Part shown: piece after piece, positions 12,487 through 20,492 of the stretch
Layout of the letters: each line of letters opens with the position of its first letter
How positions within the stretch are numbered: the stretch's first letter is position 1
Assembly: GCA_964505155.1 (NCBI GenBank)
Contig: CAZDGL010000001.1
Coordinates: forward strand, 1,286 to 65,285
From: an uncultured Candidatus Saccharibacteria bacterium
GTDB lineage: Bacteria > Patescibacteriota > Minisyncoccia > Phycocordibacterales > UBA9973
Direction of reading: 5' to 3'
DNA: 64,000 nt
Translations under genes and position numbers: made by a program
Notes under the pieces: generated by a model
Database searches by the model: none
What the model was told of the DNA's origin: nothing
What the model saw: only the letters and a program-made list of their open reading frames with translations

Positions 12487-13131
12487 ATGTACTGTACATA
12501 TCTTACCATTTATTCAGGAAACTTATTGCCACCATTTTATATCGGGTATACTTCTATTTCAAGAATAGAATCTGGGTATAACGGAACAGTAACTTCACAA
12601 CGTTACGGAACAATATGGAAATCAGAACGAAAAGTCAATAAACATCTGTTCAAAACCATCATATTAAAACAATTCCATAACAGAAAAGAAGCATTATTAG
12701 CAGAATGTCAATTACATGAAAAATTAAAAGTTGATAAAAATCCTTTATATATCAACCAATCTTGTCAAAAATCAGACGGATTTACTTGTATAGGACACTC
12801 AAAGGAATCACGTAAAAGAATGTCAGAAACCAGAAAAGGTCGTAAAGGTCCAAATCTCGGTCGAGTATTAACTGAAGAATGGAAAGAAAATATCTCCAAA
12901 GGAAATAAAGGAAAACCAAAATCTGAAACTACAAAGAAAAAAATGTCGGAATCATTTAAAACTAGAAGATGGTGGACTAACGGTATTATTGATAAATTTA
13001 CGTCAGAATACCTCGGTGAAGGATGGAGACGTGGCATGAGAAAAAATCCTAATAGAAAAGGATTTCTTCCCGGTAATCAATATCGATTCAATCCAAAAAA
13101 CCATGATATTCCTGCCAAGCATGATAACTGA
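12487..13131 (+). CDS. GIY-YIG homing endonuclease (Seg-like) with NUMOD3 repeats
   Basis: YCTYLTIYSGNLLPPFYIGYT...; repeats SKESRKRMSETRKGRKG / TEEWKENISKGNKGK; preceded by GATAAATAG plus an SD-containing hairpin. Confidence 0.7.
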   Translation: MYCTYLTIYSGNLLPPFYIGYTSISRIESGYNGTVTSQRYGTIWKSERKVNKHLFKTIILKQFHNRKEALLAECQLHEKLKVDKNPLYINQSCQKSDGFTCIGHSKESRKRMSETRKGRKGPNLGRVLTEEWKENISKGNKGKPKSETTKKKMSESFKTRRWWTNGIIDKFTSEYLGEGWRRGMRKNPNRKGFLPGNQYRFNPKNHDIPAKHDN

Positions 13132-13936
13132 TGTATTCAACAACTCTATGTTTGTCCATTGCGTATAATCCTGCGCAGGCCAGTGAGTTAAGTTCTACGA
13201 TTTTTGGACCGTTCTCCGTCAATGCGACATCGCAGATATAGACAGAATCCGGTTGCCAGATATGGTTAGCCATCTTCCATGCCATATCCATACAGTCCTT
13301 ATCCCAATCATGTCGGATGTCAAGGACATTATCCCATCGGTATTCGGATCCATCGACCACTTCACGATTGACAATCAAAAACCGAAATTCGGCTTTGATG
13401 TTCTTTGCTGAGGAAATCAGGCATAGAGTCTCATCCTGAACACTGGTCAATTGCATGGAGGACGATAGCTCGTCTGCCACATTATCAATAGTGATAACAA
13501 ATCCAGTGAAAGTCTTGAACCCGGATACCGGACGAATGAACACGCAATCTGATTTGAAAATATCAAATACTCGAAGTGGATTATCTCTCACTTCTTTGAA
13601 AGGAAGAATGATGTAGTCCGCATTGAGTAGAGAATTCTTAGGAAGATTTGGGTAATAGAAATTGCAATTCATGTTCTGACCGATGCCGTAGGCACCCGGT
13701 GTGAAACCCATCTTGCATTTGGATACGTATCCATGTGTGCCATAAAGCACAACAATGTCTGCAGAAGTATATGGACCGTAATCCTGAACCTCTGCAAACG
13801 GAATGTATTTAGTTTCATGAAGGGAGCATCCGTGAGCTTTGATAGCTCCTAGAAGATCTCCTACCGTGGATCTAGAATCCAGAATATGAGTGTCAACTGC
13901 CCACGCTACTTGGTTTGGTGTATACCGCATTTTCAT
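13088..13936 (-). CDS. ATP-grasp-fold protein (putative peptide or amine ligase)
   Basis: C-terminal VYICDVALTENGPKIVELNSLACAG resembles the ATP-grasp E.N..PG signature; 282 aa. Confidence 0.45.
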   Translation of the reverse strand: MKMRYTPNQVAWAVDTHILDSRSTVGDLLGAIKAHGCSLHETKYIPFAEVQDYGPYTSADIVVLYGTHGYVSKCKMGFTPGAYGIGQNMNCNFYYPNLPKNSLLNADYIILPFKEVRDNPLRVFDIFKSDCVFIRPVSGFKTFTGFVITIDNVADELSSSMQLTSVQDETLCLISSAKNIKAEFRFLIVNREVVDGSEYRWDNVLDIRHDWDKDCMDMAWKMANHIWQPDSVYICDVALTENGPKIVELNSLACAGLYAMDKHRVVEYISYHAWQEYHGFLD

Positions 13937-15991: not shown

Positions 15992-16026
15992 ATATGATCT
16001 ATTTATAACCCATTCCATTCCACAAG

Positions 16027-16470
16027 TCAATTATTTTTTTCGGGAACTTCGTATTCAGGAATTTCCAGATCGACCGTAGCGGATTCACCTTCTTGCATTT
16101 GAATCATCAGATCAGGTTCCTGACCTTCGCTTGATTCTTCCAACTGCTTATGTCTGGACAGAATAAGCTTTTCAGCTAGATCGTCCGTATACGGAGTGTG
16201 GCAATAGATTGGCTTTACAGAATTCAACCAAAGATAAATGACTGGTTCATCAAGCTTGAATTCCAAAATCTCACGTCTGATTGATAGATCACATTCCACA
16301 CTCTGACCAGCAGTCATTTTGGACAAATGTAGAATTAATGGTGCTGCGGCAATCATGAAGAACACCGCAAAGACCTTTACCAAGCTTCTGGCATCAGACC
16401 ACAGAATGATGCCAGCAAGCGCGCAGACAACCAGAGTCAGTACAATCCATCCGATATAAAATTCGATCAT
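16027..16470 (-). CDS. membrane protein (2 TM) with acidic C-terminus
   Basis: Hydrophobic segments IGWIVLTLVVCALAGIILW and VFAVFFMIAAAPLILHL. Confidence 0.45.
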   Translation of the reverse strand: MIEFYIGWIVLTLVVCALAGIILWSDARSLVKVFAVFFMIAAAPLILHLSKMTAGQSVECDLSIRREILEFKLDEPVIYLWLNSVKPIYCHTPYTDDLAEKLILSRHKQLEESSEGQEPDLMIQMQEGESATVDLEIPEYEVPEKNN

Positions 16471-16471
16471 T

Positions 16472-17026
16472 TCACTGACCCTTCTTGATTAGAATGTCAA
16501 CCGGAATATCGAGAAACTCACCGAGTTTTCCGTTCTCATCAATACTGAAATTCCACAATGTCACCTGATCCATTGGATTAAGGATGACTTCTTTTTCACC
16601 AACCGATACGACACCACCATTCACCCGCATTTCCAGCTTGGCAGTTACTGGAACCGGATCCAAGCACCTGTAGCAATGCAGATTGATGGCATAATCACCC
16701 TCAGGCTTACCGCGCGAGAATGCATTTTCGTAATTTAAAGGAAGGACATCACCATAGACACCAGTATCGTCTCGGAGCAAATTCCAAACGCTACCAGATT
16801 TTCTGGAAAATCCGATTGCCATATCTCTGGGAGACTTGAGCCACAGATCGACGTCATTGTTTCCTTCTGGCCACATGACAGTAACGATCAAGTCACCGTT
16901 CATGGTATTGCGGTTTTCTTCTGCTATCGGCACAATAGCTGCCACAGCATACATGAAAAACGCAAAAATAACAGCAATTGTACAATATAGAACGTCTCTA
17001 AAAAGAGTCTGTACTGCGTCCTTCAT
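16472..17026 (-). CDS. single-pass membrane protein, possible ExbD/TolR-like partner
   Basis: N-terminal TM (LYCTIAVIFAFFMYAVAAIV) with a preceding Asp, then a soluble domain; adjacent to a MotA/TolQ-like gene. Confidence 0.3.
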   Translation of the reverse strand: MKDAVQTLFRDVLYCTIAVIFAFFMYAVAAIVPIAEENRNTMNGDLIVTVMWPEGNNDVDLWLKSPRDMAIGFSRKSGSVWNLLRDDTGVYGDVLPLNYENAFSRGKPEGDYAINLHCYRCLDPVPVTAKLEMRVNGGVVSVGEKEVILNPMDQVTLWNFSIDENGKLGEFLDIPVDILIKKGQ

Positions 17027-17027
17027 G

Positions 17028-17495
17028 TCATTCTGCCAATTCGATTTGAGTCAATACTATACGATAGTTTACGACGTGCCAAAGCAGGGACGATGCACCC
17101 AGAATTGTACAATAGGAAAGCGTCTTTAGACCACCAGACATTGCTTCACCCATGGCACCCATTTTCTCAGGATCACCGAGTGCCGATAGATCCACACCCT
17201 GAACCATATGCAGGATACCGATGGAGGTACCGATTAGGCCAAGCGTCACCAAATATGAACCGATATCTCCCACATATTGGAACTTAATCTTTATATCGTC
17301 CATTGTAAGATTCCACGCGAAGTAGAAAATGGAAGCCAAACCGAAGAGGAATGTGCTAGCAATGAGATATGATACGTGCGAAGAATCGTCTAGAAATGCA
17401 GGGAGAAGAACCCCAACCTTATAAAGAAAGAATGTGAGACATGCCAAGGCAAAATTCCACACAGTGAGCTTGGCAATCAAAAAATTATGCTGCAT
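17028..17495 (-). CDS. MotA/TolQ/ExbB-family-like 3-TM proton-channel protein
   Basis: TM2 LVTLGLIGTSIGILHMV and TM3 ...ILGASSLLWHVVNYR resemble the conserved G(L/I)xGTxxG and ...YN segments of TolQ/ExbB. Confidence 0.45.
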   Translation of the reverse strand: MQHNFLIAKLTVWNFALACLTFFLYKVGVLLPAFLDDSSHVSYLIASTFLFGLASIFYFAWNLTMDDIKIKFQYVGDIGSYLVTLGLIGTSIGILHMVQGVDLSALGDPEKMGAMGEAMSGGLKTLSYCTILGASSLLWHVVNYRIVLTQIELAE

Positions 17496-17505
17496 AATCT
17501 GTCCT

Positions 17506-17973
17506 TTAAGTTTCGTTGGTCTGATGGTGGGTATACTTGAATGAACGATCCCATTTTGTATATGCTTGGGATAGAATGTAGTTCTCGTCCAGATCGTATT
17601 CGAAATACATCTTGTTGAGAATTCCTAGAACGTCTCCCAACTCAATTTCTAGGAGACGTCGATTTGTGGTCTGTCTTGGATCATCAGGATGATAGGATTC
17701 GTATCCGTGTCGCTTGATCTTCTGAGCAATCATAATTACTTCAGACAATTCTTCCACAAGCATATCGAGCCGCTCTGTTTCAGCAGGAGTCAATCCGTTG
17801 AAGTGGACTTGTGATTCAGCTTCCAAGGCTCGTTCTTTCCAATATTCTGCATCCGTGTTTTCTTTGAACGGATAAAATCTTCCAGCACCATCGGCAATCT
17901 TCACGCTAGCTACTGAAGCCGTGTTCCTAGAAGCCACTTCAGCAGCACCTCTCAATCCAGCATTATCCAACAT
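17506..17973 (-). CDS. MazG-like all-alpha NTP pyrophosphohydrolase (T4 dCTPase gp56-like?)
   Basis: EExxE-type helix LVEELSEVIMIAQKIKRHG and E...LGDVL motifs. Confidence 0.5.
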   Translation of the reverse strand: MLDNAGLRGAAEVASRNTASVASVKIADGAGRFYPFKENTDAEYWKERALEAESQVHFNGLTPAETERLDMLVEELSEVIMIAQKIKRHGYESYHPDDPRQTTNRRLLEIELGDVLGILNKMYFEYDLDENYILSQAYTKWDRSFKYTHHQTNET

Positions 17974-18947
17974 TATAATATTTCCAAACAGTGGTTGATT
18001 GAATCGTTCAAATTATACTTAGGTCTCCATCGCAGGATGGATTCAGCACATCGGGTATCCGGTATTCGAGTCTTCACGTCGTTCGGATATTCCTTGACGG
18101 TTTCAAACTCCAGATCCACACCACGGAAATCAATCAGACCCTTCAGGTATGCCAGATCCGCAATCGTCTGCGCGAGCCTGCGCATGGTGACTGCCTCGGT
18201 GGATCCAAGATTGTAAACCGTGTTGTAGGTCTCCACATCAAACGATAGATTAGCAATCGCTAATGAGGTATCTCGAATATCTGTGAAGCATCTAATCTGG
18301 AACCCATTTCCAATGATAGGAAGCTTCTTGTTCTTCAGGACTACGATCTGGTGGATATAATCAGCAAAGACGTGTGAACTACCGATTTCATACTCGGCAG
18401 TCTCATACGGTGTGATGATATTGAACGGTCTCCAGATTGTATACGGAAGCTGGTATTGCTCCCAGTATGCTTTGGATAGACGTTCACCCACATACTTCGA
18501 AAGACCATAATCCGTCTTGTGGACACGTGAGGTTTCGGTCATCCACTCTTCAGCAGTCTCCAGATTCTCATAGACCATGGAAGAAGAAATGTAAACTACT
18601 CTTTTGACGGTTTCGATGTTATAAGCAGACCGCAGGATGTTGCTGTGCAGCGTGATATCATTTCCGAGAATATCTGCAGGATGAGACGAAAATCCACCGA
18701 CTCCGAAAATCGTGGCAGCACCCTGAATCACATAATCAGGTTGGACTTCACGAAACAAAATGTCTACCACATTCGGATGGATCAAATCCAACTTATGAAA
18801 ATCATACTTGACATTTGCGATATTTCGACGTTGCTTATATCTGGAAAGATTGTCTACACCAACCACATCATGTCCATTGTTTACAAGATGTGGGATAACG
18901 GATTGCATGAGAGATCCTTCGGATCCCGTTACTAAAACTCTGCTCAT
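17973..18947 (-). CDS. NAD-dependent sugar epimerase/dehydratase (extended SDR)
   Basis: N-terminal VLVTGSEGSLM Rossmann motif and catalytic YGLSK (YxxxK). Confidence 0.7.
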   Translation of the reverse strand: MSRVLVTGSEGSLMQSVIPHLVNNGHDVVGVDNLSRYKQRRNIANVKYDFHKLDLIHPNVVDILFREVQPDYVIQGAATIFGVGGFSSHPADILGNDITLHSNILRSAYNIETVKRVVYISSSMVYENLETAEEWMTETSRVHKTDYGLSKYVGERLSKAYWEQYQLPYTIWRPFNIITPYETAEYEIGSSHVFADYIHQIVVLKNKKLPIIGNGFQIRCFTDIRDTSLAIANLSFDVETYNTVYNLGSTEAVTMRRLAQTIADLAYLKGLIDFRGVDLEFETVKEYPNDVKTRIPDTRCAESILRWRPKYNLNDSINHCLEIL

Positions 18948-19100
18948 GTGATTACTTCTTCCGAATAAAAGTGCTAATAATGCCTACTGCTAATATGAAT
19001 AGAAAAATCCAAAGAAATGGAAAGACCAACGGATAATGATGAGCCAACTGTTCACCAAATCTAGCACCCAAACATACTGTTGATAGGTTGCAGGGATCCA

Positions 19101-20492
19101 TCAAAGTATCTCAATTCCATTTAGACTGTTTGGTGTGAATTTTGAAGTGATATCCACTAGGATAACACCCTTCTTGAAGAATCGCTTCCACAACGATTTC
19201 TTATCAGCAAAAACCTTATGTGGAGTCATGACAATAATCATATCGTATTCACCGAAGTTCGGTAGCTTGGAATATTTAGCCACGTAAGGATCGTAGATAT
19301 CGTAGACGATTCCATTGCGCTTCAGAATCTTTGCCATTCTAAATGACAAGGAATTTCGGGTATCATCCGACTCTGGTTTAAATGCGGCACCAAGGATTAG
19401 AACCTTCTGTGGTCGAGGATAAACCTGAAGCTCATTCCACAGATAGTCCACGATGTTTTCATTAATCGTGAAGCTACCACGGATCAGTTCCGAATACGGA
19501 ATCTTACTCAGCAAGAAGTGGCCATCCTTATAGAGGCACGGACCAGCAGCAAATCCCGGCTTATCCATATTCATTCGAGGATAATCGAAATTTGCCAGAT
19601 TGATGATCTTGGTCGCATCGACACCATGCTCGCGACAAATGATATAGAATTCATTCGCAAGTGCGAAGTTCACATACCGATACATGTTGGTGATCAGCTT
19701 CGCTAGTTCGGCTTCTTCCCATGACACGAATCCATAACTGAATTCATCCTGAATAGATTGTTTGGGGAAAAGTCTTTGAACTTTAGCCAAAACATCAGAC
19801 TGGAATTGTCGTGAATAATCGATGGTCATGTCGTATCTCTTATTCGGTGCATCCGAATTCCACTCGTATCCGATGATTTGTGGAAGCTCCTTGAATTCAG
19901 TCAATCCATGTCCCTGTGATACTCGTTCAGGAGCAAAAAACATGAAGTAGTCGATACCATGGACATAACCATAATTAGCTAGCTTCTGGGAAATAGCTCT
20001 GGTGGTACCCGGAATAACCGTAGACCGAAGGACGAAGATGTGTCCCTTGATTTCTCCAATTGAATGGAGATATTCAAAGTAGTTGAAAATATCGTCCACT
20101 GACGGATTGCCGTTCTCATCAATTGGTGTACCGATCATAATGCAGATCATTCTAGCTCTGCGTACGGCTTCTGGATCCGTGGTGAATTCAACCATCCGAT
20201 GATAAAGCTTGGAGCTTAGAAGTGACTCGGCATCGTCCTCTAGATATGGAACGATGCCCATATTGAGCTTATCGACTACTTCCTGATTTTTATCGATGCC
20301 GATTACCTTACGGTAAGACTGAGCAATGGACAAACTGAACGGAAGTCCCACGTGGCCAGCGGCACCAATCACTGCCACGTAATCGTCTCTATCATCTTTT
20401 GTTTGAAGTGATACTCCACCAACATATCGTGAAGAGGTTTGTACTGCCATTTCCATTAATATCTTTCTTCGGTGTTCAGGAAGGTTTCCCAC
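19101..20492 (-). CDS. nucleotide-sugar dehydrogenase (UDP-glucose/GDP-mannose dehydrogenase family)
   Basis: VIGAAGHVGLP (GxGxxG) and catalytic-Cys motif GFAAGPCLYKD; 463 aa. Confidence 0.75.
   Translation of the reverse strand: MGNLPEHRRKILMEMAVQTSSRYVGGVSLQTKDDRDDYVAVIGAAGHVGLPFSLSIAQSYRKVIGIDKNQEVVDKLNMGIVPYLEDDAESLLSSKLYHRMVEFTTDPEAVRRARMICIMIGTPIDENGNPSVDDIFNYFEYLHSIGEIKGHIFVLRSTVIPGTTRAISQKLANYGYVHGIDYFMFFAPERVSQGHGLTEFKELPQIIGYEWNSDAPNKRYDMTIDYSRQFQSDVLAKVQRLFPKQSIQDEFSYGFVSWEEAELAKLITNMYRYVNFALANEFYIICREHGVDATKIINLANFDYPRMNMDKPGFAAGPCLYKDGHFLLSKIPYSELIRGSFTINENIVDYLWNELQVYPRPQKVLILGAAFKPESDDTRNSLSFRMAKILKRNGIVYDIYDPYVAKYSKLPNFGEYDMIIVMTPHKVFADKKSLWKRFFKKGVILVDITSKFTPNSLNGIEIL

What the first reader, a model, noticed from the sequence alone, without database searches (positions are those of the whole stretch)
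16027..17495. Three consecutive membrane proteins including a MotA/TolQ/ExbB-like 3-TM channel and a single-TM partner
ORF 17028..17495 has three TM helices whose second and third helices resemble the conserved TolQ/ExbB/MotA channel segments (LGLIGTSIGILHMV and ...LGASSLLWHVVNYR). The adjacent ORF 16472..17026 is single-pass with an Asp at the start of its TM, like TolR/ExbD/MotB stator partners. A third 2-TM protein follows. A phage-encoded proton-motive-force stator-like pair would be unusual. It could energise DNA entry, lysis timing or superinfection exclusion, or mimic or poison host Tol/Ton systems.
Basis: inference. Interest (0 to 1): 0.55.

Follow-up and report, generated by a model that had tools for sequence, protein, structure and literature searches.

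The report
Phage-borne minimal stator-like membrane motor cassette
A T4-like phage carries a conserved three-gene cassette whose first protein is a stripped-down relative of the ion-driven flagellar, Ton/Tol and Zorya motor subunits, together with two partner membrane proteins of unknown family; no paper found in the library searched describes such a motor module in phages, and its role is still unknown.

Summary
The three minus-strand ORFs are real and separated by single nucleotides. dN/dS is 0.05-0.20 in homolog pairs.

- **ORF1 (155 aa):** a minimal MotA/ExbB/TolQ/ZorA-superfamily protein. Alone it scores just under Pfam's cut-off (21.2 vs 22.9 bits). However, 40 of 41 relatives hit PF01618, and the family profile hits solved ZorA, MotA and TolQ. 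T90 and T130 align with the ZorA filter residues T147 and S184. The model shows four helices, not three, and almost no cytoplasmic domain.
- **ORF2:** topologically like MotB/ExbD (N-in, single TM, Asp at the cytoplasmic end). Its beta-sandwich ectodomain matches no known family.
- **ORF3:** two TM helices plus a periplasmic domain, and always co-inherited.

All 52 related loci keep the gene order wherever sequence extends far enough. They include rhizobiophages, environmental phages up to 256 kb, prophages and Rhodospirillales chromosomes. In the one clade where the partner lacks the Asp, the ring subunit gains a Glu.

Most likely this is a self-contained ion-driven motor with periplasmic output. 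Its biological role is unresolved. No publication was found. It is a new variant of a known kind.

The parts
17028..17495 (-). ORF1, 155 aa: a minimal ring ('A') subunit of the MotA/ExbB/TolQ/ZorA superfamily. It has four helices, is N-in/C-in, and has only about 6 residues of cytoplasmic loop. Pore-lining T90 (GLIGT) and T130 are present, and an invariant acidic D37 lies in the first periplasmic loop.
   Evidence: PF01618 at 21.2 bits, E=2.5e-4. 40 of 41 relatives hit PF01618. The family profile hits PDB ZorA 8vvn at 7.9e-8, EcZorA at 5.7e-6, MotA at 2e-5 and TolQ at 2.6e-4. AF2 pLDDT is 95.8. About 40 of the top 50 Foldseek hits are stator A subunits, with 8vvn_D at rmsd 1.8 A over 77 columns.
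16472..17026 (-). ORF2, 184 aa: an axle-like ('B') partner. It has a short cytoplasmic N-terminus and one TM helix with the F-R-D11 motif at its cytoplasmic end. An approximately 8-stranded beta-sandwich ectodomain (residues 43-162) follows, with invariant motifs WPEG..DVDLW, WNLLRDD.G, NYENAF.RG and a CYRC pair.
   Evidence: Family alignments A2 and A7. AF2 model pLDDT 78.9. No Pfam, PDB-sequence or Foldseek relative. It lies immediately downstream of the ORF1 homolog in most loci, separated only by an inserted gene in 16-3-like phages.
16027..16470 (-). ORF3, 147 aa: the third obligatory component. It has two N-terminal TM helices joined by a basic loop (W-S/A-R-R..R in homologs), which implies N-out/C-out. 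A small periplasmic domain follows (IY.LLD..PR.Y.LPW....A..LQ), and in most homologs a Pro-rich tail. The tail is short in the window copy (EIPEYEVPEKNN).
   Evidence: Alignments A3 and A6. Its HMM finds it downstream of ORF2 in every locus that extends far enough. No Pfam or PDB relative. No SHLS motif in 0 of 30 homologs.
16002..16030 (-). Sigma-70-like promoter (TTGACT, 17 nt, TATAAA) overlapping the ORF3 stop codon. It marks the downstream boundary of the cassette's transcription unit and is not part of the machine itself.
   Evidence: Read directly from the sequence. The consensus scanner did not list it, and promoter-like sites in the region are not above chance.

Best explanation
The three ORFs form one translationally coupled, horizontally mobile cassette. 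It most likely encodes a self-contained ion-driven membrane motor of the MotAB/ExbBD/TolQR/ZorAB (5:2) kind, reduced to its membrane core. ORF1 would form the ring, and ions would pass between its two C-terminal helices (T90, T130). ORF2 would form the central axle, and the carboxylate on its TM helix (D11) would take up and release the ion. ORF1 has essentially no cytoplasmic domain, so the work must be delivered on the periplasmic side. The output would pass through the conserved beta-sandwich ectodomain of ORF2 and through ORF3. ORF3 is a 2-TM protein with a periplasmic domain and, in most homologs, a Pro-rich tail. It occupies the gene position that TolA holds after TolQR. Shown here: ORF1's superfamily membership, the conserved pore residues, the topologies, the strict three-gene synteny, purifying selection, and retention of a membrane carboxylate. 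Inferred: the 5:2 stoichiometry, rotation, the ion type and the periplasmic target. Biological role: an envelope-directed function that needs no other phage gene, because intact copies live alone in bacterial replicons. My leading guess (about 0.35) is gatekeeping of the envelope against competing phages or other entry (superinfection exclusion). A Tol-like role in envelope or peptidoglycan maintenance, or a lysis-related role, is about as likely (about 0.3).
For: ORF1 homology. EcZorA T147 and S184, the filter residues that engage ZorB D26, align with ORF1 T90 and T130 in the alignment. T130 is Thr or Ser in 69 of 70 relatives, and position 90 is Thr or Asn in 70 of 70. ORF2 has the MotB/ExbD topology, with Asp at the cytoplasmic end of its TM helix in 31 of 40 loci. 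In the other 9 loci, which form one clade, the Asp is replaced by A, G or T, and all 9 have gained a Glu at ORF1 position 126, one helical turn from T130. The neighbouring Arg of ORF2 is kept. This mirrors the GldL Glu49 / GldM Arg9 arrangement. Synteny: all 52 related loci keep ORF1 then ORF2 then ORF3 in order on one strand wherever sequence extends far enough, whether the locus was found through ORF2 or through ORF1. No other gene is co-conserved across loci. The junctions are single-nucleotide. dN/dS is 0.05-0.20 for all three genes in homolog pairs. Loop charges fit N-in/C-in for ORF1 and a periplasmic C-terminus for ORF2 and ORF3. Bacterial copies lie beside envelope genes: BON, LysM and Amidase_3.
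Against: The window's ORF1 alone scores below Pfam's gathering cut-off. ORF2 and ORF3 have no detectable homology to ExbD/TolR/MotB/ZorB or to TonB/TolA. The kink prolines conserved in MotA/ExbB/ZorA are absent. ORF2 has no recognisable peptidoglycan-binding domain and only a short linker, so how either part is held still is unclear. Position 90 is Asn rather than Thr in 13 of 32 locus-derived sequences and 8 of 70 in the wider alignment. The Asp-to-Glu swap is a single evolutionary event, not independent replication. Oligomeric state, ion flux and rotation were not testable here because only monomer structure prediction was available. The Foldseek E-values for ORF1 are individually non-significant. 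Nothing identifies the target or the phenotype.
Confidence: 0.6

Rival explanations
1. The module is a gated ion leak rather than a motor. The ORF1 ring with ORF2 as a plug would act as a regulated channel that collapses membrane potential on a signal sensed in the periplasm by the ORF2 and ORF3 ectodomains. This could time lysis, in a holin- or antiholin-like way, or abort a competing infection.
For: It uses the same channel-forming helices and carboxylate as the best explanation. There is no cytoplasmic or peptidoglycan-anchoring domain to convert flux into useful torque. The cassette lies near lysis genes in some phages: a lysozyme and endopeptidase about 3-5 kb upstream in RHph_TM3_3_14B, and a PG_binding_1 protein about 0.6 kb downstream in L042.
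Against: Stand-alone copies are stably kept in bacterial replicons without holin or endolysin partners. Strong conservation of a large, structured ectodomain and of a third protein goes beyond what a simple leak needs. All characterised members of the superfamily transduce energy rather than merely dissipating it (established knowledge).
Confidence: 0.15
2. The proteins are decoy or poison subunits. They would insert into host TolQR, ExbBD, MotAB or ZorAB complexes to disable them, for example as an anti-Zorya counter-defence or to block Tol/Ton-dependent entry of rivals.
For: ORF1's best solved relatives are ZorA proteins. Anti-defence genes lie nearby in two phage contigs: Gad2 in L004 and Tad2-like in L007. 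The Zorya authors speculate that T4 may encode an anti-Zorya factor.
Against: The cassette always brings its own cognate partner and a third protein. The ring and axle co-vary internally through the Asp/Glu swap, which argues for a closed, self-sufficient complex. Intact copies persist in bacterial replicons, where poisoning host motors would be harmful. Identity to any host stator is very low, and the cytoplasmic domains needed to co-assemble are missing.
Confidence: 0.1
3. The resemblance is fortuitous. These would be three unrelated small membrane proteins, for example generic phage membrane proteins, with no ion-conducting function.
For: The single-sequence Pfam score is sub-threshold. ORF2 and ORF3 have no known homologs. 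The Foldseek E-values are weak.
Against: The family-level evidence is decisive for ORF1. Functional residues are conserved. The three-gene synteny is strict across very different genomes. Purifying selection is strong.
Confidence: 0.03

Closest known systems
ZorA-ZorB core of the Zorya anti-phage systems (5:2 PG-binding rotary motor; PDB 8vvn, 8qyd)
   Same: ZorA is the best sequence and local-structure match to ORF1. The two channel helices align without large gaps, including the longer periplasmic loop. ZorA T147 and S184 align with ORF1 T90 and T130. The partner has a TM Asp (ZorB D26 vs ORF2 D11). The partner gene lies immediately downstream.
   Different: ORF1 has no long cytoplasmic ZorA tail, since the protein ends after its last helix. 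It also has an extra N-terminal TM helix (4 vs 3). ORF2 has a beta-sandwich instead of the OmpA-like PG-binding domain. There are no ZorC, D, E, F or G effectors nearby, and the third gene is a membrane protein instead. PADLOC and NCBIfam Zorya models give only E=0.003-0.1.
TolQ-TolR-TolA and ExbB-ExbD-TonB (Tol and Ton energisers)
   Same: The three-gene logic and order match: ring, then single-TM Asp-bearing axle, then a membrane-anchored periplasm-spanning third protein. The output is periplasmic. ExbB Thr148 and Thr181 and TolQ equivalents correspond to T90 and T130.
   Different: TolQ and ExbB have 3 TM helices, are N-out, and carry a large cytoplasmic domain. ORF1 has 4 helices, is N-in, and has none. 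ORF2 does not match PF02472 and is not an ExbD-like alpha/beta fold. ORF3 has two TM helices, no SHLS motif (0 of 30), and no TonB_C or TolA domain. The kink prolines are absent.
MotA-MotB / PomA-PomB flagellar stator units
   Same: The A subunit has the same four-helix, N-in/C-in topology. The B subunit has its Asp near the cytoplasmic end of its TM helix. The family profile hits MotA at E=2e-5 and PomA at 0.03.
   Different: ORF1 has no cytoplasmic torque-generating loop between helices 2 and 3 (about 6 residues here, against roughly 100 in MotA). ORF2 has no plug helix and no OmpA-like domain. The prolines corresponding to MotA P173 and P222 are missing.
GldL-GldM / PorL-PorM (type IX secretion and gliding motor)
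   Same: It has a small ring subunit with little else, an axle whose large periplasmic domain is the output, and the carboxylate on the ring paired with an Arg on the axle. The Asp-less clade of this cassette has that arrangement: ring Glu126 and axle Arg10.
   Different: No sequence relationship was detected: no GldL, GldM or other Pfam family was listed for ORF2 or ORF3, and only PF01618 for ORF1 relatives. GldL has 2 TM helices. GldM's periplasmic part is a long four-domain rod, not a single beta-sandwich.

Membership tests
MotA/ExbB/TolQ superfamily (Pfam PF01618), ring subunit: ORF1 | Significant profile match across the two C-terminal channel helices | tested here: met
   The window protein alone scores 21.2 bits against a cut-off of 22.9, E=2.5e-4, so it is sub-threshold. 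At family level, 40 of 41 relatives hit PF01618 with best E=7.4e-12. Most of the listed relatives carry a precomputed PF01618 hit. The family profile hits ZorA, MotA, TolQ, ExbB and PomA in the PDB.
MotA/ExbB/TolQ superfamily, ring subunit: ORF1 | Polar Thr or Ser on both pore helices facing the partner's carboxylate (ZorA T147/S184, ExbB T148/T181) | tested here: met
   T90 and T130 align with ZorA T147 and S184. Position 130 is Thr or Ser in 69 of 70 relatives, and position 90 is Thr (62) or Asn (8).
MotA/ExbB/TolQ superfamily, ring subunit: ORF1 | Conserved kink prolines in the pore helices (ExbB P141/P190, ZorA P136) | tested here: not met
   No conserved Pro occurs within the membrane-spanning parts of helix 3 or helix 4 among the 32 locus-derived sequences. 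The few Pro occurrences lie near the helix ends, at most 7 of 32 at position 109.
MotA/ExbB/TolQ superfamily, ring subunit: ORF1 | Substantial cytoplasmic domain (MotA loop, ExbB/TolQ helices, ZorA tail) | tested here: not met
   The AF2 model has helices 41-61 and 68-99 joined by about 6 residues, and the protein ends at the last helix. Longer relatives have only a 20-70 residue loop.
5:2 rotary motors in general | Pentameric ring around a dimeric axle, with ion-driven rotation | not testable with these tools
   Only monomer structure prediction was available, and no experiment was possible.
MotB/ExbD/TolR/ZorB, axle subunit: ORF2 | N-in single TM helix with an essential Asp near its cytoplasmic end, encoded directly after the ring gene | tested here: met
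   The helix spans residues 2-31 with D11. Asp is present in 31 of 40 loci, and in the other 9 it is replaced by a Glu on the ring subunit. The gene lies directly downstream of the ring gene in most loci, with an inserted gene between them in 16-3-like phages.
MotB/ExbD/TolR/ZorB, axle subunit: ORF2 | Sequence match to PF02472 (ExbD), MotB plug or OmpA-like models, or to solved B subunits | tested here: not met
   No Pfam family at E<=10 for 11 members. No PDB sequence hit below E=0.04 for profiles A2 and A7. The TM-only profile A9 found nothing.
MotB/ExbD/TolR/ZorB, axle subunit: ORF2 | Periplasmic domain with an OmpA-like or ExbD/TolR alpha/beta fold | tested here: not met
TonB/TolA, third component: ORF3 | Single N-terminal TM helix with the SHLS motif, and a TonB_C or TolA C-terminal domain | tested here: not met
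   ORF3 has two TM helices. The SHLS motif occurs in 0 of 30 homologs. No relevant Pfam family or PDB sequence hit was found. Only a Pro-rich tail in most homologs is reminiscent.
Zorya defence system | ZorA with a long tail, ZorB with a PG-binding domain, and ZorC/D, ZorE or ZorF/G effectors | tested here: not met
   PADLOC ZorA models score E=0.003-0.06, and ORF2 and ORF3 hit nothing. ORF1 has no tail. No conserved neighbour exists beyond the trio.

The most novel reading that the evidence does not exclude
The cassette is a previously unrecognised, autonomous family of ion-driven 5:2-type rotary motors reduced to a bare membrane core. Its axle ectodomain and third subunit are unrelated to any known stator accessory. 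It is carried as a mobile cassette by very different phages (temperate siphoviruses, T4-like myoviruses, contigs up to 256 kb) and by Rhodospirillales. Phages would use it to spend host proton-motive force on mechanical work in the periplasm of the infected cell, for example to shut the envelope to competitors or to control envelope integrity.
Probability: 0.45. Interest if true: 0.85.

Novelty: new variant of a known kind. Interest (0 to 1): 0.7.

Why it matters
Ion-driven 5:2 motors are known to power flagella, Ton/Tol transport, gliding and type IX secretion, and Zorya immunity. I found no report of a phage-encoded one in the searchable literature.

This cassette would be one of the smallest members found so far. 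Its ring subunit has about 155 aa and no cytoplasmic domain, which makes it an attractive minimal model for how ion flux is converted into motion. The natural Asp-on-axle to Glu-on-ring swap could also inform where the protonatable group must sit.

Biologically, it suggests that phages can install their own PMF-consuming machine in the host envelope. This opens a testable question about exclusion, envelope control or lysis. It can be tested in a genetically tractable system, Sinorhizobium phage 16-3 genes p038-p042.

It also assigns a putative molecular function to at least 800 related ring-subunit protein clusters, most of them unnamed or labelled hypothetical, and to their partner genes.

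Tried and rejected
- **DNA-level relatives:** a nucleotide search of the region against GenBank phages matched only a tRNA.
- **ORF2 and ORF3 family searches:** PHROGs, NCBIfam and PADLOC gave nothing useful for the window's ORF2 and ORF3. Pfam and PDB-sequence searches with family alignments also gave nothing. The only faint signals were a subtilisin C-terminal beta-jelly-roll (E about 0.05) and gelatinase (E about 0.2).
- **TM-only test:** a profile of ORF2's TM segment alone found no stator B subunit.
- **"Phage-restricted" inference, withdrawn:** I first inferred this from 2 hits among 185,579 species genomes. That scan used strict peptide patterns. Later searches found complete cassettes in Tistrella and Azospirillum replicons and in other alphaproteobacterial chromosomes.
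- **ORF1-first locus scans:** these failed because the alignments were too diverse. I sampled ORF1-first contexts through protein look-ups instead.
- **ORF3 as TonB/TolA:** rejected, with no SHLS motif in 0 of 30 homologs and two TM helices.
- **Fourth conserved gene:** none exists across loci. The trypsin-like protease, MazG, epimerase and BON/amidase neighbours are lineage-specific.
- **Record names and source:** the exact-sequence cluster look-up returned no names, and the source record could not be retrieved.
- **Literature:** six searches found no paper on a phage-encoded stator-like cassette. Targeted term look-ups in the 5:2-motor review and the AP-16-3 paper found nothing either.
Full report
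**What is there**

The window encodes three tightly packed minus-strand ORFs: ORF1 17028-17495 (155 aa), ORF2 16472-17026 (184 aa) and ORF3 16027-16470 (147 aa). The junctions read TGA-c-ATG and TGA-a-ATG. An AGGA Shine-Dalgarno sequence precedes ORF1. A near-consensus TTGACT-17-TATAAA element overlaps the ORF3 stop codon, so the trio closes a transcription unit.

The window belongs to a T4-like myovirus from a 151-kb NCBI contig. It encodes a gp43-type polymerase, clamp loader, SbcC-like protein, gp23-like capsid and gp20-like portal, plus 12 tRNAs. Its capsid protein is only about 63% identical to those of Methylophilales phage Melnitz, Pelagibacter phages Mosig and HTVC008M, and cyanophages. 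The region has no nucleotide-level relative among GenBank phages.

Upstream on the same strand lie a MazG-like gene, an NAD-dependent epimerase and a UDP-glucose/GDP-mannose dehydrogenase-family gene.

**ORF1 is a minimal MotA/ExbB/TolQ/ZorA-superfamily protein**

- On its own, ORF1 scores just under Pfam's gathering threshold for PF01618 (21.2 vs 22.9 bits, E=2.5e-4). It also gives weak ZorA and PomA hits.
- An exhaustive profile search from four close homologs found 724 representative proteins at E<=1e-3 and 249 at E<=1e-10.
- Of 41 sampled relatives, 40 hit PF01618, with best E=7.4e-12.
- A 70-sequence family profile hits solved stator subunits directly: Shewanella type I ZorA 8vvn (7.9e-8), E. 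coli ZorA (5.7e-6), MotA (2e-5), TolQ (2.6e-4), ExbB (0.02) and PomA (0.03). All hits run through the two C-terminal helices.
- In that alignment, ORF1 T90 (GLIGT) and T130 fall on EcZorA T147 and S184. The Zorya structure paper identifies these as the filter residues engaging ZorB D26. They are equivalent to ExbB Thr148 and Thr181.
- Position 130 is Thr or Ser in 69 of 70 relatives. Position 90 is Thr or Asn in all 70.
- The AlphaFold model is very confident (pLDDT 95.8). It has four long helices (2-27, 41-61, 68-99, 109-154) and essentially no cytoplasmic domain.
- Loop charges in the family give N-in/C-in, which is the MotA topology.
- Foldseek E-values are weak. Still, about 40 of the top 50 PDB hits are MotA, PomA, ExbB, TolQ or ZorA chains, and the best local superposition is ZorA 8vvn_D (probability 0.99, rmsd 1.8 A over 77 columns).
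- Two differences from the canonical families stand out: no conserved kink prolines and no cytoplasmic domain.

**ORF2 works like a stator B subunit but is not a member of any known B family**

ORF2 has a short cytoplasmic N-terminus and one TM helix (2-31) carrying F-R-D11 at its cytoplasmic end. An eight-stranded beta-sandwich spans residues 43-162. The ectodomain carries invariant motifs: WPEG..DVDLW, WNLLRDD.G, NYENAF.RG and a CYRC pair.

No Pfam family matches it, including ExbD, the MotB plug and OmpA. No PDB sequence and no Foldseek neighbour in the PDB or BFVD is informative. A TM-only profile found nothing. The resemblance to TolR/ExbD/MotB therefore rests on topology, the TM Asp and gene position, not on demonstrable homology.

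**ORF3 is an obligatory third component**

Its homologs share two N-terminal TM helices joined by a basic W-S/A-R-R..R loop, which implies that the C-terminus is periplasmic. They also share a small conserved domain (IY.LLD..PR.Y.LPW....A..LQ) and usually a Pro-rich tail (PQPKVLPDKP). The tail is short in the window copy.

ORF3 has no Pfam or PDB relative. It lacks the TonB/TolA SHLS motif in 0 of 30 homologs.

**The trio is a conserved, mobile cassette**

HMMs for the three families were run on six-frame ORFs of every fetched locus. All 52 related loci keep ORF1 then ORF2 then ORF3 on one strand wherever the sequence extends far enough. The third gene, or part of the second, is missing only where a contig ends. 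The loci fall into these groups:

| Setting | Examples |
|---|---|
| Temperate rhizobiophages | 16-3 (p038, p040, p042), AP-16-3, NV1.1.1, RHph_TM3_3_14B, RHph_X2_25 |
| Divergent rhizobiophages | RHph_N34 (Pootjesviridae), RHph_N3_13, RHph_I1_18 |
| IMG/VR viral contigs | 30 contigs, 5.5 to 256 kb |
| Other metagenomic phage contigs | L004, L006, L007, L042 |
| Probable prophage | Denitrobaculum |
| Sites with no phage genes nearby | Tistrella (between era and recO), a 3.5-Mb alphaproteobacterial chromosome, Azospirillum chromids |

- Loci were reached both through ORF2 and through ORF1, so the co-occurrence holds in both directions.
- Clustering of all flanking ORFs found no fourth universally conserved gene.
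- In 16-3-like phages, an extra gene (p039 or a Seg-type homing endonuclease) sits between ORF1 and ORF2.
- dN/dS is 0.05-0.20 for each of the three genes in every homolog pair with unsaturated dS. The window's own ORF1 and ORF2 were compared directly with their closest relative.
- Among 50,697 GenBank phage records, only rhizobiophages carry the cassette (17 records, 9).
- My early inference that the module is phage-restricted was wrong and is withdrawn.

**A membrane carboxylate is always retained**

ORF2's TM Asp is present in 31 of 40 loci. The other nine form one clade and read F-R-[A/G/T]-Y. All nine, and only these, carry Glu at ORF1 position 126 (GLR[IV]EISTT against GMKVAFYTT), one helical turn from T130. 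The adjacent Arg of ORF2 is kept.

This is one evolutionary event, so it is not statistical proof. It does reproduce the GldL Glu49 / GldM Arg9 arrangement of the gliding and type IX secretion motor. It is also what one would expect if an ion-binding carboxylate between ring and axle is essential.

**Most likely mechanism**

I propose a self-contained ion-driven ring-and-axle complex. ORF1 forms the ring and ORF2 the axle. Ions pass via D11 between T90 and T130. The ring has no cytoplasmic domain, so the output must be periplasmic. It would pass through ORF2's conserved ectodomain and through ORF3, which occupies the place of TolA/TonB in gene order.

- **Shown:** superfamily membership, conserved pore residues, topologies, strict synteny, selection and carboxylate retention.
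- **Inferred:** 5:2 stoichiometry, rotation, the ion type and the target.
- **Confidence in this molecular picture:** about 0.6.

**Biological role**

Complete copies persist alone in bacterial replicons, so the module needs no other phage gene. The bacterial copies lie next to envelope genes: BON plus LysM in L045, and BON plus Amidase_3 in Azospirillum. The phage copies lie in accessory regions:

- downstream of the immX superinfection-immunity genes in 16-3, roughly 4 kb away;
- just inside attL in RHph_TM3_3_14B;
- near Gad2 and Tad2-like anti-defence genes in L004 and L007;
- near lysis genes in RHph_TM3_3_14B and L042.

I rank the roles as follows:

| Role | Estimated probability |
|---|---|
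| Envelope gatekeeping or superinfection exclusion | about 0.35 |
| Tol-like envelope or peptidoglycan maintenance, or a lysis-related role | about 0.3 |
| Something else | the remainder |

Among rival mechanisms, a gated depolarising leak gets 0.15 and a decoy of host stators gets 0.1. The decoy idea is disfavoured by the self-contained, internally co-varying design. Chance resemblance gets 0.03.

**Comparison with known systems and novelty**

The module works like Ton/Tol or GldLM, with a periplasmic output. Its ring resembles ZorA most closely in sequence and MotA in topology. It fails the membership tests for Zorya (no tail, no PG-binding domain, no effectors), for ExbD/TolR/MotB (ORF2) and for TonB/TolA (ORF3).

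Six literature searches and two targeted paper look-ups found no description of a phage-encoded stator-like cassette. Source annotations for the relatives are at most "MotA/TolQ/ExbB proton channel family protein", and most are hypothetical or unnamed.

I classify it as a new variant of a known kind.

**Limits**

- Only monomer structure prediction was available.
- No structure was predicted for ORF3.
- There are no experimental data.

Noticed in passing
window 12487-13131 (+): A GIY-YIG/NUMOD3 homing endonuclease (PF07460; phrog_10820 and phrog_314) is encoded antisense to the surrounding minus-strand genes. It overlaps the 3' end of the R2K ATP-grasp gene (13088-13936) by about 44 nt.
   Followed up: no
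window 17973-20492 (-); L049 1088-3382; L040 7741-8724: An NAD-dependent epimerase and a UDP-glucose/GDP-mannose dehydrogenase-family gene lie just upstream of the cassette. The same pair precedes the cassette in the closest relative, where the MazG-like gene is replaced by a 55-aa ORF. An epimerase also flanks the Tistrella copy. This could be coincidence or a link to surface-glycan modification.
   Followed up: partly
window 4285-40190 (-): Twelve tRNA genes, all on the minus strand, are scattered through the early and middle region: Pro, Ser x2, Thr x2, Val x2, Ala, His, Cys, Gly x2. tRNA-Thr and tRNA-Cys lie within about 1 kb downstream of the cassette.
   Followed up: no
L002 4234-4992; L003 4270-5007; L001 5351-5641: In 16-3-like rhizobiophages an extra gene separates the ring and axle genes. 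It is a Seg-like homing endonuclease in RHph_TM3_3_14B, a 245-aa ORF in NV1.1.1 and p039 in 16-3. Tight translational coupling is therefore not obligatory.
   Followed up: partly
L001 3890-4789; L002 3102-3812; L047 6037-6729: A trypsin-like (periplasmic-type) serine protease lies directly upstream of the cassette in phages 16-3 and RHph_TM3_3_14B, and about 2 kb downstream in the unrelated phage RHph_N3_13. It may be a lineage-specific accessory of the module.
   Followed up: no
L045 3843-4280; L052 3809-5494: Bacterial copies of the cassette sit near envelope and peptidoglycan genes: a BON+LysM protein in a 3.5-Mb alphaproteobacterial chromosome, and a BON protein plus an Amidase_3 (N-acetylmuramoyl-L-alanine amidase) in an Azospirillum brasilense chromid. 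The Azospirillum chromids show two matching places per record. The second place was not examined.
   Followed up: partly
L004 377-1312; L007 4054-4392: Known anti-defence gene families occur a few kb or less upstream of the cassette in two phage contigs: Gad2 (PF26128, anti-Gabija) and Tad2-like (PF11195, anti-Thoeris). This suggests the cassette sits in accessory or counter-defence regions.
   Followed up: no
window 16660-16674 (-), ORF2 residues 118-121: The periplasmic ectodomain of ORF2 has a C-Y-R-C (CxxC) pair that is conserved in most phage copies. It is absent in the Rhodospirillales chromosomal clade (HL[FY]RN) and in a few phage copies. It could be a disulfide or a metal site.
   Followed up: no
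window 16760-16816 (-), ORF2 residues 71-89: The most strongly conserved motif of ORF2 (WNLLRDD.G, residues 81-89) falls in the least confident part of the AF2 model (mean pLDDT 56-57 for residues 71-90). This would be expected for a loop that is ordered only when bound to a partner or ligand.
   Followed up: no
L042 1-2244: The 99.5-kb viral-like contig carrying a cassette also encodes a giant 7310-aa polyvalent protein just upstream, with InPase, ART-PolyVal, LPD38, helicase and intein domains.
   Followed up: no
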